Source of the DNA: Raja brachyura
Taxonomy: Eukaryota
DNA length: 64,000 bases
NCBI GenBank assembly: GCA_963514005.1
Contig: OY740784.1
Span: 86,056,001 to 86,120,000, forward strand
Direction: 5' to 3'
The position numbers are program-made. Positions 9,001 through 61,400 of the stretch are shown in pieces. Numbering within the stretch: position 1 is the stretch's first letter; every line of letters starts with the position of its first letter.

Positions 9001-12000
9001 GTCAATTTGGAAGCCAGGGATCATGAACAATTTAGTTTAGTGCAGGAAGGAACTGCAGATGCTGGTTTACACCGAAGATAGACACAAAATGCGAAGTAAC
9101 TCAGCGGGACAGGCAGCATCTCTGGATAGAAGGAATTGGTGACGTTTCGGGTTGAGACGCTTCTTCAGACTGAGAGTCAGAGGAGAGGAATAGAGATATG
9201 GAAGGGTAAAGTGTAAAAAAGAGAAATCAAAGGGGACAAAGCTCAAGTAAAATGTACCATGGATCATTGTCACCTTCCCCTCGGCTAACAATGACGTCTA
9301 CAAGCAGCAAAATTTAATCAGGACAGTAAAACTAGCGGAGAACTAGGATGTGAGAGGGACCGCATGGGAGATTAGTTAAGCTTAAAGATACAGCACAGAA
9401 ACAGGCTCTTCGGCCCACTGAGTCCGTGCCAACCTGCGATTCCCACATGCTAACATCATCCTACACACCAGGAACACTTTACAAGTTACTGAAGCCAATT
9501 AACCTACAAACCCATATGCCTTTGGAGAGTGGCAGTAAACTGGTACCCAGAGAAAACTCATGCATGTCTCAGGGAGAAGGTACAAACAGCACCCGTTTTC
9601 ATGATCGAACCGGACAGCAGCTAAGGCAGCAACTCTACCGCTGCGCCACCGTGCCATTCAAAATTCCCCATATTTTGGAAAATGTGCAGCCTTCCAAATG
9701 TAGAAAAGGAAGACTGGATTTAGATAGCACCGTTTATACCACTTCCCAAGATATTTCAAAGCATTTTACAGCCAAAGAAAAACCTAGTGTCGCCATTGTT
9801 AAAAAAGCAAGAAGTCATAATCTGTAGGAAGGAACTGCAGGTGCTGAATTAAGCCGAAGATAAGACACTAAATGCTGGCGTAACTCAGTGGGACAGACAG
9901 CATCTCTGGTGAGAACGAATGGTGACGTTTCGATTTGAGACCAAGAAGGGTTTGAGACACAAAGAAACGTCACCTATTCCTTCTTTCCCGAGATGCTGTC
10001 TGTCCTATTGAGTTACTCTAGCATTTTGTGTCTATCTTAAGTCCTCATCTGAGCATGGCACATTCCCAGCGCAGCAACGCAACCAGAAAGGTTGATCGAG
10101 AAATACAACTGCGCAGAACAGCAAGGTAATTTGCCTCCTCTGTTTCAGAAGAACACCATGGATTATTTAACATCATAAGAATAAAGAGGTTAAATTTACT
10201 TTAGACTTCGAGATACAGCATGGAAACAGGCCCTTAGGCCCAGAGTCTGCGCCGACCAATGATCACCCTGTGCACTAGCATCATCCTACACATTAGAAGT
10301 AATTTACAACTTACAGAAGCCATTTAACATACAAACCTGCACGTCTTTGGAATGTGGGAGGTAACCGGAGCACCCAGAGAAAACCCACGCAGACACAGGG
10401 AAAATGTTCAAACTCCGGACAGACGGCACCCGCAGTCAGGATCAAACCCAGGTCTCTGGCACTGTCAGGCAACTCTACCACTGCGACACCATGCTTCCCA
10501 TGCACAGAGTCTTTTACCCAGAGTAAGGCTATCGAGAACCGGAGTGTGGTGGATAAATGGCACAAGCTGCCAGAGGAGGTAGCTGATATACTATCACAAC
10601 ATTTAAGAAACATTTGGAAGGGTACATGGAGAGGATAGGTTTAGAGGGATATGGGGAAAATGCAGGCAGGTGAGACTAGTGTAGATGGGGCATATTGAGT
10701 CTGTTCCCAGTTTAACGTCCCACTGGAAAGACGGCACTTCGGACAGTGGAGCTCTCTCACTACAATATTGGCACATCAGCCTTGATCATTGAGCAGTTAA
10801 AGTAGGGAAAGCAGGAAACCCATGCCAGCTTCAGGATACAGCAAACAATTCTGCGAGCTAGCAGATAATAGTGGGCACCGCCATTCCCGAGTCAGTGGGG
10901 CTGACATCAAATGACCTAACCCAGTGTGTGGGAAGGAACTGCATTTGCTGGTTTAAACCAAAGACAGACACAAAAAGCTGGAGTAACTCAGACTGAAGAA
11001 AGGACTCGACCCGAAACGTCACCCATTCCTCCTCTCCAGAGATACTGTTTGTCCCGCTGAGTTACTCCAGCTGTTTGTGTCTATCTTCGGTTTAACCCAG
11101 TGTACATTGGAGGGAGGATTGCCAGGAATAAGCAAGCTTTGGTTGAGCTATTTTTTAAGCGACAAACAAACTCAACCTATTGGCAGTTTTCCAAATAGGA
11201 AGCTTTTCAAAGCCAGCCTAGTTGCCTAGACCAATCTCCAGAGTGGATTTTGTACCAGAACTTGAAAATGGCTCCATTCTGGCTGGAGCTGGTAAAAGGC
11301 AAATACTATTAATCTGTTTACCAAGGGCGGTTCTTCATCTTGTTGGGGGTTTTGAGGAGAGGGGCATACATGGCAGGGGTCAACCACTTCAATGCTGATG
11401 AGTAATCAGGGCATCATTCCTCTACTGGAGACCAGCAGACAGTGTTTATTTACACCGGCCACAGTGCAGCAATGACTGGGACATGCCAGTCGCTTCAAGC
11501 TTTTTGCCATACGACCCAAGAAAAAAAAAACCTTGGGCTGCAGCCTTTTCAATCTGGCCTGGCATGTGACAGCTGTGGGTCAACATGTGGTTAGCATACG
11601 TCCCGCGCACCAGGGGACCACGCTTGGTAACAAACTGCGACTTCAAACTCCATGAAGAGGATTCCCAGAAAGGACATCACCTGGGATCCTTCCATCTTTT
11701 CAACTTTAAATCCCAGTTGTCGGGACAGAGGGAAGTGTGGGAATGGGCCGGTGCAGCTCTCTCCGCTGTGAGTGACAAGCACCCGAGGCTGGGACATAAG
11801 CTAGTTCCGTGTCAGCTCATCACAGGCACCACATAAAGATCCTAAAGGGACTTGGCTAAGGGGCAGGCAGTGTGTGCTGGCAACATGTGCCAGCCACCTG
11901 GAAACACAAGTTGAGCTTCTCTTCCCACAGGCTCGATGAAAACAAGTTTACCCTTCCTGTTGCAGTGTGTTGGACACAATGCCTGAAACAGCAGCTGATA

Positions 12001-58400: not shown

Positions 58401-61400
58401 TTGAGTGGGTGAAGGCAGAGACTCTCATAACATTTACGAAGCATTCAAATTAGTACTTGAACTGCCTGGGCATAGAAAGCTTGAAATTAACTTCTAACCC
58501 TACATAACAAAGCCCAGTGAACGCCAGATTGGCCTCAAAAGACGTGGAAACTCTTGCTCTATGCAAGTGTAAGTAAAATACAAGTGGATACATATTTGCA
58601 GACACCTATCACTTCACTTTAACTCACAGGAAATCAAATCTTTAAAATTAAGTGGCAAACTGCATTAAATTGTGTAGATAAACTGATGTTCATCAAGTGA
58701 ACACGCATTCTGCAAAAACATAAATTTGGATTTTGCCAGAAAAATACAAAACTATTTCCTTTCCCTGTTCTTTCCAAAAAACACCACCATTAAGCAAGGA
58801 TGTTTTGACTGCAGAGTCTTACTATTTACCCAATTGGAACCCACTTTAACAGGCATCATTTGCCAGTAGTTTTTTAACATTCTTCCGCTTTGGAACACAG
58901 TAGCTGCCTCGGTAAAGTCTCCAAACATCAGCCAAGATTTATGGCAAATAAACAGATGAGTCAAAGAATCTGATGTCAATATTATGTCAGGAAGCCCCCA
59001 AGTCTGTTGCCACACAAACCGAAGGCGGCGAGAGGTGCAGAATGGTGGCCGGCGTTACAGAGGAGAACCGTCTCCTCAAATACTTAGAGATCTGACACTT
59101 TAAAATGTAAGATAAACATAAAAAGATGGAGTAACTCAGCGGGACAGGCAGCATCTCGGTAGAGGAGGAATGGATGACGTTTCGGGTCGGGACCCTTCTT
59201 CATTTAAAATGCATGTTTACAACTAATTACCCTTCAAAATGCGTGCCAATTAACGAAATATTACAGCTGCAACATTGAAGGGGGAGGTTTCACGCCGAAT
59301 ACCAAAAGAAATGCAGTAAAATTTACGAATGAAAATCTAGTCTCCAGTAAAGTGAAATCGGCTCGTTGACATCCAGGGAAACACGGGCAGCAGGTGCATT
59401 GCACCTCATAAATCACACGAGGCACAACTTAGGATGATGACTTTAAAATTTACAGTTAAAATAATTTCCTTTCCCGCGTTATCACAGAGTATACCCTTTC
59501 ACGATGCTGAATTCCACCAAAATTATATGCTTCTGTGGTTTTTTAAAAATTACGCTGCATTCCAGTTTATTCAAAGGAAGCCCCTAGCAACAGGGTGGGA
59601 GATATCTGAACTCCCGAAAGCACATGTCCTGACTATACCACGCCGAGATCAATAGGCACTAAAAAGTAATTCTTAGCGTTGGTATAAATGCGGGCGTGCT
59701 TATTATTCTGTTTTATGGATTTAGAGCAGAAAGCATTCATGCAGTTTTAGGGACCGATGCTACGAACTACTCTGAACTGATAACATCGCATTTAGTAAAA
59801 ATGAACGCTTTTTTCCCCGTCATGTCGGTTCTTATCAGTTCAAAAATAAAAACAAGAGAGCTTTCAAGAGAGAGCTAGATAGGGCTCTTAAAAATAGAGT
59901 CAGGGGATATGGGGAGAAGCAGGAACGGGGTACTGATTGTGGATAATCAGCCATGATCACATTGAATGGCGGTGCTGGCTCGAAGGGCCGAATAGCCTAC
60001 TCCTGCACCTATTGTCTATTGTAATCGTTTTTTTAAAACGAGCTCTTTGCTGTTGACCTATGGGTTTAAACCAGTGTGCGTTCGGGAGAGCGGTATACAT
60101 CTCTCTGTGTGTGCATGTGCGTTTAGTAAGTTGATGTATGCGTGAGTAATTGGTGTGCATTTGTGCAACGTACATGCGAACACTGGCTGTTGAGCCAAAT
60201 TTATAACGTTTCGGCTTACCTAGGTTCACGAAACTCATGACCATATCTGCCTGGTTAAGGAAAGAGCTGTCCTGCAAGCTGGCCAGCGGCGGGCTCTGCG
60301 TGGTGAACACCGGTCTGTACTGATGCGAGAAGCCTTCCTCCTCCTCGCCTCCGGTGGACATGGCATTGTACAAGTCAAGCATGAAGAGGGGCGCCGAGTT
60401 ATGCTTCCCGTGCGAGTGAGGTCTGGGCCGGTGGGGTAGCCCCAGGATGGAGAGAATCTCCCGCTGCATGTTCTTCTTCTCGTGGTGTTTGAGGCGGCGG
60501 TGCACAAAGCTCGAGTGGAGCTCGCTGTGGCTGCCCGTGTCCAGCAGCAAGCTGCCCGCCACGGACAACCACTCGACCACCAGGCAACAGCTCCACAGTA
60601 GCCCGAGCGCGACTCCCCGCTCGACTGCAAATGCTCCCATTGTCCGGAACAGACAGATGCAAAACTTACAACGTGAAGCAAATGAGAAAACTTTTTTTTC
60701 CTATATATTTTTAAAAGTATATATACATTTAAATAAATACACAGTGTGCCTGCACCGAGCCGGCCCCGGTGTGCTGTGTGTATCCCACACTATCTCTGCT
60801 CTTCACATGTTATCAATGAACGATTCGAACTTCGCAGCAGGTAACACTCCAAACCCCCCTCTGTTACGTCACCTGATTGACGGCCCGACAAGCGACACAA
60901 CGTTCCATCCTTTCCGCGCGCTCCATTTGCGCCCAGTGAAGGCGGGCTTTTGCAAATGGGCTCCTCCCATTCATGCCTCCCCTCTCCTCACCCTGGCTGT
61001 CCATTGCTGCAAGTGGGATATAACGTCTTATTGCCCCAAGACTTGGGCTCTCAGTTTTACAGAAAATTAGATGACTTTTTTTTCACCTGTTCCAATGCCA
61101 AAGAGATGACATCCTTATAAAGTCACCCATTGTTTGGATATTTTTTTGCTAACGGTCAAATATTCTGTTTCTTCCCCTCAGGAGAGGGAGGTTAAAAACC
61201 ATGATTTTTATTTTAATAAATAGTCTTGCGACCTTCTTATTCCAAGACTCGGTATGAATGCGTTTAGATTAGGAGTTATATTGTCATTGCGAGTCACTGC
61301 ATCCGTTTCAAGTGTAGCATTCACAATCAGGGCACTGTTTTCCAAGTTGGCCATTAACAAAATGTTATTTTAGTCGTTATCTCCTGCATTCCTTGCTTCA

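What the first reader, a model, noticed from the sequence alone, without database searches (positions are those of the whole stretch)
9041..59211. Family of short palindromic Penelope-derived elements with 9-16 bp TSDs: MITE-like shape, retro-like insertion
Seen: at least 12 copies start ...aggaactgcagatgctgg or a close variant, and many fold into near-perfect hairpins around one or two hammerhead cores. Readable TSDs vary in length: 13 bp (9812/10039), 11 (10917/11093), 14 (19146/19395), 16 (46731/46951), 9 (48511/48733), 15 (55210/55394), 14 (57885/58028), 9 (59099/59203). They sit inside V-SINEs and CR1s, so they are younger than those hosts. Inference: variable-length TSDs point to target-primed reverse transcription rather than cut-and-paste. 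The variable hairpin centre suggests an inverted partial pLTR is created anew at each insertion by fold-back priming or a template switch. This is my best candidate for a little-described system here.
Basis: partly seen in the sequence, partly recalled or inferred. Interest (0 to 1): 0.72.

Follow-up and report, generated by a model that had tools for sequence, protein, structure and literature searches.

The report
Short inverted Penelope-type retroelement insertions
A ray genome's BMP6 region is peppered with about 130-base retroelement stubs, many doubled into hairpins, whose shape matches the already described insertion signature of Penelope-like retrotransposons, so they are real but not a new kind of system.

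Summary
The head motif occurs 13 times against 0.06 expected. A profile search finds 38 arms, about 28 insertions, covering 6.4% of the window. Nine insertions are strong hairpins, with z from -7 to -16. Eight insertions have significant target-site duplications of 9-16 bp. Three of these are confirmed by uninterrupted paralogous host repeats.

The anatomy is the published Penelope-like element (PLE) insertion signature:
- one fixed end carrying a tail of about 28-38 nt;
- a second, tail-less start site about 33 nt further in;
- dispersed opposite ends;
- a head-to-head inverted copy that always lacks the tail (9 of 9);

These features are described in PMC3846280, PMC8557442, PMC4209133 and PMC11167929.

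Its claim of a little-described system is not.

Two points stay open. No Rfam hammerhead model matches. No RT+GIY-YIG ORF lies in the window (0 of 305 ORFs), so descent from a specific autonomous PLE was not tested.

Verdict: new member of a known kind; modest interest.

The parts
9825..10038 (.). Hairpin insertion D. The tail-bearing arm is 9823-9942 (model 1-120). The tail-less inverted arm is 9944-10042 (model 125 to 31). Weak TSD at 9812-9824 / 10039-10051.
   Evidence: 11/13, p about 0.19; z -13.7
10928..11092 (.). Hairpin insertion E, strongly asymmetric. The tail-bearing arm reaches only model 65. The tail-less arm runs from model 135 to about 30. The two are joined at a 5-nt CTCAG overlap. 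TSD 10917-10927 / 11093-11103.
   Evidence: 11/11, p 0.0025; z -7.8
19160..19394 (.). Hairpin insertion H. Both arms reach model 134-135. It sits inside a SINE-like repeat. TSD 19146-19159 / 19395-19408.
   Evidence: 14/14; 6 paralogues span the empty site; z -15.7
25570..25760 (.). Hairpin insertion M, of an older subfamily. No TSD detected.
   Evidence: z -11.4
46747..46950 (.). Hairpin insertion T. The tail-bearing arm reaches model 132. The tail-less arm runs from model 113 to 35. TSD 46731-46746 / 46951-46966.
   Evidence: 15/16; z -14.3
48520..48732 (.). Hairpin insertion V. TSD 48511-48519 / 48733-48741.
   Evidence: 9/9; z -12.9
50141..50644 (.). Hairpin insertion Y1. The tail-bearing arm is split into 50141-50202 (model 5-68) and 50501-50553 (model 66-118) by an unrelated insert of about 298 bp. 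The tail-less arm is 50548-50644. No clear TSD.
   Evidence: z -15.4 for 50501-50644
50675..50830 (.). Hairpin insertion Y2, in mirror orientation with the tail at the right end. It lies 30 bp from Y1 and belongs to a different subfamily.
   Evidence: z -14.0
55225..55393 (.). Hairpin insertion Z, strongly asymmetric. The tail-bearing arm reaches model 69. The tail-less arm runs from model 134 to about 38. It sits inside the RT region of an APE-type LINE. TSD 55210-55224 / 55394-55408.
   Evidence: 14/15; 2 LINE paralogues span the empty site; z -7.0
57899..58027 (+). Single-arm copy AA, from the tail to model 129. It is in the same subfamily as Z. It holds the only exact match to the strict minimal-hammerhead pattern, read on the - strand at 57999-58026. 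TSD 57885-57898 / 58028-58041.
   Evidence: (14/14)
59108..59202 (+). Single-arm copy AB without the tail (model about 35-128). TSD 59099-59107 / 59203-59211.
   Evidence: (9/9)
39505..39623 (-). Single-arm copy with the tail. It ends at about model 102, within 1 nt of the predicted hammerhead cut, followed by 9 unmatched nt. TSD 39491-39504 / 39624-39637.
   Evidence: (13/14, p 0.0025)
9042..9270 (+). Long-form copy. The module continues past model 129 to about 207.
19835..20060 (-). Long-form copy, 82% identical to 9042-9270 over 191 bp.
24576..24759 (-). Long-form copy of a different subfamily.
26561..26773 (-). Long-form copy. A further partial unit at 26524-26569 on the same strand may be a partial tandem; this is doubtful.
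8420..8600 (-).
20561..20738 (+). Long-form, diverged copy.
6311..6392 (+).
12061..12140 (+). Tail-less single arm (model 37-116).
30355..30460 (-). Tail-bearing single arm (model 7-119).
35419..35505 (-). Tail-bearing single arm (model 6-95).
36880..36992 (+). Tail-bearing single arm (model 1-113).
42354..42429 (-). Single arm (model 58-132).
49420..49499 (+). Single arm (model 46-123).
13855..14048 (.). Old, weak two-arm copy. The + arm has E=3e-6. The - arm has only E about 0.02.

Best explanation
These are insertions made by the machinery of a Penelope-like retrotransposon (PLE). They are either extreme 5'-truncated copies or, more likely, a short non-autonomous derivative. Each consists of the hammerhead-bearing end of a pseudo-LTR plus about 100 nt.

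It reads 5'-CUGAAGA...(hammerhead-like core)...-body-tail-3'. Reverse transcription is primed by a nicked target strand at one of two start sites about 33 nt apart. The other does not.

In the hairpin copies both staggered target nicks primed a cDNA, one from the tail site and one from the inner site. The two cDNAs, which have the same sense, met head to head. They were joined at short overlaps or with a few extra bases. Fill-in of the 9-16-nt stagger produced the TSD.

Shown here: the anatomy, the TSDs, the empty sites, the tail on one arm only, and the same-subfamily arms. Inferred: the RNA sense, the two-primer order of events, and dependence on a PLE enzyme.
For: 1. Ends. Arm starts in profile coordinates cluster at 1-7 (14 of 38) and 25-47 (14 of 38). 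The opposite ends are dispersed from 65 to 267, with a mode at 123-135 (15 of 38). This is the pattern of fixed 3' ends and truncated 5' ends.
2. TSD-defined boundaries. The tail end falls within about 3 nt of GTAGG in 8 of 8 copies. The tail-less end falls at model 30-40 in 7 of 7 copies. That gives a tail of 28-38 nt.
3. Tail on one arm only. In 9 of 9 hairpins exactly one arm carries the tail. The flank beyond the tail-less end is not tail-like in 10 of 10 cases.
4. TSDs. They are 9-16 bp and significant in 8 copies. Empty-site paralogues confirm 3 of them.
5. Arms from one source. Arms of one hairpin are 76-91% identical, above the median inter-copy identity in 9 of 9. Subfamily iii has one hairpin copy (Z) and one single-arm copy (AA). 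Subfamily i has centres at model 120/125, 65/135 and none.
6. Asymmetry. Copies E and Z pair a truncated tail arm (to 65 and 69) with a complete tail-less arm (from 135 and 134). E is joined at a 5-nt overlap.
7. Hammerhead-like core. The consensus on the inferred RNA strand is CUGAAGA-A-GGGU-YYCG-ACCC-GAAA-CG-UC. The extra base after A9 is an A in 16 of 18 arms and a G in the other 2, and G10.1-C11.1 is present in 13 of 18. The 15.2-16.2 pair is palindromic and there is no loop 3. All 11 core bases are intact in 5 of 18 arms, and most losses are at CpG. These are the non-descriptor features listed for metazoan PLE min-hammerheads (PMC4209133, whole text read).
8. Literature match. PMC3846280 (passages) describes an inverted pLTR next to the direct one, a 31-bp tail at the 3' end of one of them, an inverted pLTR 37 bp shorter, 8-10-bp TSDs, and pLTRs sufficient in trans. 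PMC8557442 (passages) describes high 5' truncation, an inverted 5'-truncated copy, and a 30-40-bp tail at one end. PMC11167929 (main text) reports that the enzyme nicks and extends both strands, that RT starts at two adjacent internal sites bounding the tail, and that those sites lie about 85-92 nt downstream of the hammerhead cut. Here the distances are about 66 and 100 nt.
Against: - No RT+GIY-YIG ORF is in the window. None of 305 stop-to-stop ORFs of 65 aa or more hits GIY-YIG, and the RVT_1 hits belong to LINE fragments with an AP-endonuclease domain. Homology of the termini to an autonomous PLE is therefore untested.
- No Rfam hammerhead model matches at any threshold tried.
- Helix I of the putative ribozyme has only 2 base pairs in cis (read). 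Activity is untested.
- No direct head-to-tail (pLTR-like tandem) pair is seen among the 38 arms, apart from one doubtful case at 26524-26773.
- Only 8 of about 28 insertions have a significant TSD. The others are old, and their boundaries rest on profile envelopes.
- The tail arm is shorter at the centre than the tail-less arm in 7 of 9 hairpins, which is not significant.
- Both cDNAs cover the same template region. The two-primer model therefore needs either two RNAs or re-copying of one RNA, and neither is shown.
- The pile-up of ends at model 123-135, at the 5' edge of the hammerhead core, is unexplained.
Confidence: 0.78

Rival explanations
1. Snap-back self-priming of a single cDNA or template. 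The cDNA reaches the template's end, folds back on the small terminal palindrome, and copies itself. This makes the inverted arm without a second target-primed event, as proposed for PLE inverted junctions in PMC3846280.
For: The family has a small palindrome exactly at the junction region: model 125-135, TTCAG-A-CTGAG, read from the consensus. Five of 9 hairpins are near-symmetric around model 120-135 (D, H, V, Y1, M). PMC3846280 reports palindromes at inverted junctions and reads them as self-priming.
Against: It predicts that both arms start at the same point. Copies E (65 versus 135) and Z (69 versus 134) do not, and neither does T (132 versus 113). It does not explain why the copied arm always stops 28-38 nt short of the tail (9 of 9). 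It does not explain the tail-less single-arm copies with TSDs, such as 59108-59202. Post-insertion deletions could rescue it for single cases.
Confidence: 0.12
2. The master copy is itself a hairpin element (a palindromic non-autonomous retroelement or MITE-like source). The variable centres are later deletions at unstable palindrome centres.
For: Palindrome centres are deletion-prone (general knowledge, not tested here). The outer ends of the hairpins are fairly constant: the tail at one end, model 30-40 at the other.
Against: Single-arm copies with good TSDs occur in the same subfamilies (AA with Z; AB and 36880-36992 with D and E). The deletions would have to be one-sided in E and Z. Four diverged subfamilies would each need a hairpin master.
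Confidence: 0.05
3. A tRNA-derived or other Pol III SINE, read on the strand of the reader's motif. It would be mobilised by one of the LINEs in the window, with L1-style twin priming giving the inversions.
For: TSDs of 9-16 bp are also typical of AP-endonuclease LINEs (general knowledge). LINE fragments with Exo_endo_phos_2 and RVT_1 lie in the window. The consensus has an A-box-like word (6 of 9 specified bases) and a B-box-like word (8 of 9), 42 nt apart. This was compared by eye with the Pol III consensus quoted in PMC8969392.
Against: ARAGORN finds no tRNA-like structure anywhere in the window. There is no poly(A) or microsatellite tail at either end. On that strand the constant 3' ends of the two arms would meet at the hairpin centre, not at the target DNA. 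That cannot arise by target priming. TSD-flanked copies such as 39505-39623 would be 3'-truncated. The B-box-like word is helix II of the hammerhead-like core.
Confidence: 0.03
4. A cut-and-paste DNA transposon derivative (a true MITE).
For: The hairpin shape and short length.
Against: TSD length varies from 9 to 16 bp. One end carries an unpaired 28-38-nt tail. The inner ends and centres vary. Single-arm copies have TSDs. No transposase domain was found in 305 ORFs.
Confidence: 0.02

Closest known systems
Canonical EN+ Penelope-like element insertions (Penelope/Poseidon, Neptune clades): pLTR, inverted pLTR, 'tail'
   Same: - Short TSDs of variable length.
- Strong 5' truncation.
- A head-to-head inverted 5'-truncated copy.
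- A 30-40-nt tail on one end only.
- The inverted copy shorter by the length of the tail.
- A small palindrome at the inverted junction.
- A minimal hammerhead upstream of the RT start sites.
Sources: PMC3846280, PMC8557442, PMC11167929, PMC4209133. Here.
   Different: No ORF and no direct pLTR pair lies in or next to any copy. The units are only about 95-235 bp long (up to about 270 bp for long forms). Homology to an autonomous element was not tested.
Dispersed single and 'dual opposite-strand' min-hammerhead motifs of metazoan genomes (Cervera and De la Pena 2014, PMC4209133)
   Same: - The core boxes, an extra base between positions 9 and 10.1, and G10.1-C11.1.
- A palindromic 15.2-16.2 pair with no loop 3.
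- Mostly single motifs taken to be truncated PLEs.
- Pairs of motifs about 100-700 bp apart on opposite strands were noted in Schistosoma.
   Different: Here helix II is 4 bp plus a tetraloop, not the 7-8 bp reported for Schistosoma. Helix I is only 2 bp, as in the D. virilis variant. The paper did not dissect TSDs, tails or junctions of such pairs (whole text read).
Non-LTR (metazoan) retrozymes, proposed non-autonomous derivatives of PLE pLTRs (bioRxiv 10.64898/2026.07.22.740005; abstract and Results part 1 read)
   Same: Short, non-coding, hammerhead-bearing and PLE-related. Monomeric dispersed copies are reported there too.
   Different: Retrozymes are defined by head-to-tail tandem arrays and circular RNAs. 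None of the 38 arms here forms a clear tandem. Inverted pairs are not part of that definition.
L1 5'-inversion by twin priming
   Same: Two target 3' ends prime two cDNAs, which are joined at microhomology. This gives an inverted 5' segment within one TSD-flanked insertion (recalled knowledge, no paper read).
   Different: In L1 the two segments come from different parts of one RNA. Here both arms copy the same region, and the inner primer always starts at a defined site about 33 nt from the outer one.

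Membership tests
PLE-mobilised insertion | Short target-site duplications of variable length | tested here: met
   Eight copies have TSDs of 9, 9, 11, 14, 14, 14, 15 and 16 bp, each at p<=0.0075 against 400 controls. Three are confirmed by empty-site paralogues.
PLE-mobilised insertion | A 30-40-bp 'tail' present at only one end of the insertion | tested here: met
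   The tail is 28-38 nt by TSD-defined ends. It is on one arm only in 9 of 9 hairpins. The flank of the tail-less end is not tail-like in 10 of 10 cases.
PLE-mobilised insertion | An adjacent inverted, 5'-truncated copy (head-to-head) | tested here: met
   There are 9 two-arm copies with hairpin z from -7 to -16. Both arms are of the same subfamily in 9 of 9.
PLE-mobilised insertion | Partial direct tandem (pLTR-ORF-pLTR) | tested here: not met
   No clear head-to-tail pair among the 38 arms. One doubtful case lies at 26524-26773. This is expected if the copies are solo or truncated units.
PLE-mobilised insertion | Termini homologous to the pLTR/ORF junction of an RT+GIY-YIG element of the same genome | not testable with these tools
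   No eukaryotic genome or repeat library was available. In the window, 0 of 305 ORFs hit GIY-YIG.
Metazoan PLE minimal hammerhead (Cervera and De la Pena 2014) | CUGANGA and GAAA boxes, GUH cleavage triplet | tested here: met
   Met in the consensus. All 11 core bases plus H17 are intact in 5 of the 18 arms that cover the motif, and losses are mostly at CpG. There is 1 exact hit to a strict pattern against 0 in 100 shuffles.
Metazoan PLE minimal hammerhead (Cervera and De la Pena 2014) | Extra base between 9 and 10.1; G10.1-C11.1; palindromic 15.2-16.2 with no loop 3 | tested here: met
   An extra base is present in all 18 arms: A in 16 and G in 2. G10.1-C11.1 is present in 13 of 18. The consensus has C15.2-G16.2, with ACGU as a self-complementary stand-in for helix III.
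Metazoan PLE minimal hammerhead (Cervera and De la Pena 2014) | Helix I of 4-5 bp; self-cleavage | tested here: inconclusive
   Only 2 cis base pairs can form (A1.1-U2.1, C1.2-G2.2), read. A 2-bp helix I is reported for D. virilis. Cleavage cannot be tested here.
Rfam hammerhead families (types I/II/III, HH9, HH10) | Match to a curated covariance model | tested here: not met
   There are 0 hammerhead matches at gathering score, at E<=10 on the whole window, and at E<=10 on a 176-nt copy.
MITE (cut-and-paste) | Fixed TSD length and terminal inverted repeats reaching both ends | tested here: not met
   TSDs are 9-16 bp. One end has an unpaired 28-38-nt tail. The inner arm ends vary from model 30 to 40.
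Non-LTR retrozyme | Head-to-tail tandem repeats, each with a hammerhead | tested here: not met
   No tandem pair is found in the window. Circular RNA cannot be tested here.
tRNA-derived SINE | tRNA-like fold, Pol III A and B boxes at canonical spacing, LINE-like or A-rich 3' tail | tested here: not met
   ARAGORN gives 0 hits. The boxes match 6 of 9 and 8 of 9 bases at 42-nt spacing, against 30-35 in the consensus quoted in PMC8969392 (compared by eye). No 3' tail is present.

The most novel reading that the evidence does not exclude
The hairpin copies are genomic fossils of a coupled, two-strand target-primed reaction. In every hairpin (9 of 9) one strand was primed at the outer RT start site and the other at the inner one, never the same site twice. 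If the two strands chose a site independently, this would happen with probability at most 0.5^9, about 0.002. That points to one asymmetric ribonucleoprotein, perhaps an enzyme dimer on a single RNA, copying the same roughly 130-nt minimal template twice. It would also mean that batoid genomes carry an abundant, long-lived, SINE-like parasite of PLEs. The unit would be just the hammerhead plus the RT-recognition segment, and it makes up 6.4% of this window.
Probability: 0.3. Interest if true: 0.55.

Novelty: new member of a known kind. Interest (0 to 1): 0.3.

Why it matters
The finding explains a MITE-like repeat class that annotation pipelines would probably call 'unknown' or 'DNA/MITE'. It is in fact retro-inserted PLE debris.

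These short copies show both junctions, both RT start sites and the joint between the two cDNAs within about 200 bp. They are therefore a compact natural record of the PLE insertion reaction, which so far has been reconstituted only in vitro for one lizard element. A genome-wide tabulation could test in vivo whether the two start sites are used in a coupled way. It could also show what sets the 5' boundary next to the hammerhead.

It does not reveal a new kind of system.

Tried and rejected
- Rfam scans: three scans gave no hammerhead. The only hits were sub-threshold miRNA-model matches caused by the hairpin shape (for example mir-1756, 39.6 bits against a gathering score of 100). These were rejected as shape artefacts.
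- Strict minimal-hammerhead pattern: only 1 exact hit. It is too strict for decayed copies and was replaced by the per-arm table (one search had an off-by-one register and was discarded).
- Tail-like target sites: I tested whether the flank beyond the tail-less end resembles the tail, as the profile envelopes of E and T suggested. All 10 of 10 cases were at chance level. Rejected.
No bias.
- Enrichment of ends at the predicted hammerhead cut (model 101/102): only one copy, 39505-39623. No enrichment.
- Differential column conservation along the module: 0.76-0.87 in all segments. Uninformative.
- Literature search for six 15-16-nt words of the family: 0 papers.
- Search for shark/elasmobranch PLE hairpin literature: nothing specific. 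This covers only the held library's main texts. Repbase and Dfam could not be consulted, so the family may already be catalogued. Supplementary files of the papers cited were not opened.
- First hairpin-folding script timed out. It was rerun with 20 shuffles.

Full report
**What is there.** The head motif AGGAACTGCAGATGCTGG occurs 13 times with up to 3 mismatches, against 0.06 expected by chance. I built a profile from window copies. It defines a module that I number 1-135:
- a body from 35 to 129, ending ...GACCCTTCTTCAG;
- a few more bases to 135.

Six older copies run on to about model 205-267. nhmmer finds 38 arms at E<=0.01. That is about 28 insertions and 4103 bp, or 6.4% of the window.

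**Context.** The window holds three exon-sized ORFs of a BMP6-like gene on the minus strand: 59957-60700, 23442-23801 and 14864-15076, all hitting TGFb_propeptide. The best protein match is BMP6 of the stingray Hemitrygon akajei, at 96% identity. The contig is therefore from a ray or skate, not human. Most copies lie in introns.

**Target-site duplications.** A boundary-tolerant TSD search was compared with 400 random pseudo-elements. It finds one more, 13/14 at 39491/39624. The pair at 9812/10039 matches only 11 of 13 (p about 0.19). The other 18 of the 27 elements tested have none.

For three of the nine TSD-bearing copies, I removed the element and one TSD copy. The result is a sequence that uninterrupted paralogues of the host repeat span without a break. 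There are six SINE-like paralogues for 19160-19394. There are two LINE paralogues for 55225-55393. There is one paralogue for 57899-58027. The insertions and their TSDs are therefore real, and they are younger than their hosts. I did not test the names V-SINE and CR1. The LINE host has AP-endonuclease and RVT_1 domains.

**Hairpins.** Nine insertions are two arms in opposite orientation. They fold with z-scores from -7.0 to -15.7, while two single-arm copies give -1.5 and +0.2. The arms of a hairpin are 76-91% identical. This is above the median identity to arms of other copies in 9 of 9 cases. At least four diverged subfamilies exist, and both arms always belong to the same one.

The same subfamily gives both hairpin and single-arm copies (55225-55393 and 57899-58027). 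Within a subfamily the centres differ: model 120/125 in one copy, 65/135 in another, and none in others.

**Asymmetry.**
- In 9 of 9 hairpins exactly one arm carries the tail. The other arm ends at model 30-40, and its flank is not tail-like (10 of 10 at chance level).
- TSD-defined boundaries put the tail end within about 3 nt of GTAGG in 8 of 8 copies. They put tail-less ends at model 30-40 in 7 of 7 copies, including the single arm 59108-59202.
- Over all 38 arms, starts cluster at 1-7 (14 arms) and 25-47 (14 arms). The opposite ends are dispersed from 65 to 267, with a mode at 123-135 (15 arms).
- At the centres, the tail-bearing arm ends at model 120, 65, 135, 115, 132, 123, 118, 96 and 69. 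The tail-less arm starts at 125, 135, 134, 135, 113, 130, 130, 107 and 134.
- The arm envelopes overlap by 1-6 nt in five hairpins. They are separated by 1-5 unassigned nt in four.
- The tail arm is the shorter one in 7 of 9 hairpins. This is a tendency, not a significant result.

**Orientation and mechanism (inference).** Fixed ends next to the target and ragged opposite ends are the mark of target-primed reverse transcription.

On that reading both arms of a hairpin are cDNAs of the same sense, each attached to one target strand. They meet 5'-end-of-template to 5'-end-of-template (head to head). The two staggered nicks, 9-16 nt apart, each primed a cDNA. One started at the outer start site and the other at the inner start site. 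The 3' ends of the two cDNAs were then joined. In copy 10928-11092 the join is at a 5-nt complementary overlap (CTCAG/CTGAG).

A single cDNA folding back on the small palindrome at model 125-135 could make the near-symmetric copies. It cannot make 10928-11092 or 55225-55393. It also cannot explain why the second arm always stops short of the tail.

**Hammerhead.** Rfam finds no hammerhead at gathering score, at E<=10 on the whole window, or on a single 176-nt copy. The only sub-threshold hits are miRNA models, matched because of the hairpin shape.

On the inferred RNA strand the consensus reads CUGAAGA-A-GGGU-YYCG-ACCC-GAAA-CG-UC|ACC. Of the 18 arms covering it, 5 keep all 11 core bases, an allowed H17 and at least 3 of 4 helix II pairs. 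Most losses are CpG transitions. An extra base follows A9 in all 18 arms (A in 16, G in 2). G10.1-C11.1 is present in 13 of 18. The consensus also has a palindromic C15.2-G16.2 pair and no loop 3.

These are exactly the features that Cervera and De la Pena list as emerging, beyond their search descriptor, in the minimal hammerheads of metazoan PLEs. They propose that those ribozymes act as dimers (PMC4209133, whole text). Helix I can form only 2 pairs in cis. I therefore call it a PLE-type minimal hammerhead motif whose activity is untested.

**Comparison with what is known.**
- Arkhipova et al. 2013 (PMC3846280, passages) describe the typical Penelope insertion. It has two direct pLTRs plus an adjacent inverted pLTR and a 9-bp TSD. 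[quoted passage not shown] Palindromes at the inverted junction are read as self-priming. pLTRs alone suffice for integration in trans.
- Craig et al. 2021 (PMC8557442, passages) list high 5' truncation, an inverted 5'-truncated copy, and a 30-40-bp tail at one end as general PLE features.
- Frangieh et al. 2024 (PMC11167929, main text) worked with an anole PLE enzyme. It nicks and extends both target strands. It starts reverse transcription at two adjacent internal sites that bound the tail, about 85-92 nt downstream of the hammerhead cut. It needs only a template of about 150 nt, and the protein is predicted to be a dimer. Here the two start sites lie about 66 and 100 nt downstream of the predicted cut.
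- Li et al. [quoted passage not shown] Those are tandem arrays, which these copies are not.

The family thus shows the known PLE insertion signature reduced to its smallest unit.

**Rivals.** A true MITE is excluded by the variable TSDs, the unpaired tail and the variable arm ends.

A Pol III SINE on the motif strand was also considered. The consensus has A-box-like and B-box-like words (6 of 9 and 8 of 9 bases). However, ARAGORN finds no tRNA-like fold and there is no 3' tail. On that strand the constant 3' ends would meet at the hairpin centre, which target priming cannot produce.

Hairpin masters with later centre deletions are unlikely. Single-arm copies share the subfamilies, and the truncations are one-sided.

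**Not settled.**
- No RT+GIY-YIG ORF is in the window: 0 of 305 ORFs of 65 aa or more, and the RVT_1 hits belong to LINEs.
- No eukaryotic genome or repeat library could be searched. The link to a particular autonomous PLE is therefore untested. So is the choice between truncated copies and a dedicated non-autonomous family, and whether the family is already catalogued.
- No copy exceeds about 270 bp, and 15 of 38 ends pile up at model 123-135. This leans towards a discrete short template. What sets that boundary, at the 5' edge of the hammerhead core, is unexplained.
- Paper searches for the family's sequence words and for elasmobranch PLE hairpins found nothing specific. Supplements were not opened.

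**Verdict.** The mechanistic reading is largely right but already in print for PLEs. This is a new member of a known kind, and interest is modest. The main value is as a compact in vivo record of two-strand PLE priming.

Noticed in passing
window 59957-60700, 23442-23801, 14864-15076 (minus strand): Three exon-sized ORFs of a BMP6-like TGF-beta family gene. The first is 96% identical to Hemitrygon akajei BMP6, so the window is from a ray or skate, and most copies lie in its introns. The exon for the mature TGF-beta domain was not seen among ORFs of 65 aa or more.
   Followed up: partly
window 2046-3705 (+), 4569-5309 (-), 54695-55606 (-): Fragments of one AP-endonuclease LINE family (Exo_endo_phos_2, RVT_1), 78-84% identical to each other. 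The last fragment is split by the 55225-55393 hairpin insertion.
   Followed up: partly
window 50141-50830: Two hairpin insertions of different subfamilies sit 30 bp apart in mirror orientation, with their tail-less ends facing each other. The first is itself split by an unrelated insert of about 298 bp (50203-50500) that starts with a poly-G run.
   Followed up: no
window 10962-11086 and 50598-50783: The hairpin copies score against several Rfam miRNA-precursor models, well below gathering score (for example mir-1756, 39.6 bits, E=2.6e-4). This is probably only shape, but such hairpins could feed small-RNA pathways.
   Followed up: no
long-form copies, e.g. window 9169-9200 read on the minus strand: On the inferred RNA strand, the sequence just upstream of the hammerhead box is a pyrimidine tract ending CAG, with a CUGAC a few bases before it. 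This resembles a 3' splice site. In D. virilis Penelope an intron ends at the 5' edge of helix I (PMC4209133). The pile-up of copy ends at model 123-135 lies at this point.
   Followed up: no
window 13855-13924, 48263-48340, 26524-26569: Older, weaker matches share the middle of the module. They then continue with a different shared sequence (GAAACAGAGTTAACG-like). This suggests an older related family or a chimeric relative.
   Followed up: no
window 39460-39482, 24600-24630, 50218-50237: Long homopolymer G/C runs (about 20-28 nt) lie directly beside or inside three copies of the family.
   Followed up: no
tail region, e.g. window 10935-10955, 46757-46776, 48531-48549: In 3 of 9 folded hairpin copies the otherwise unpaired tail forms its own small stem-loop (AAACUGC-AGAU-GCUGGUUU). 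This recalls the stem-loop at the RT start site of the anole PLE.
   Followed up: no
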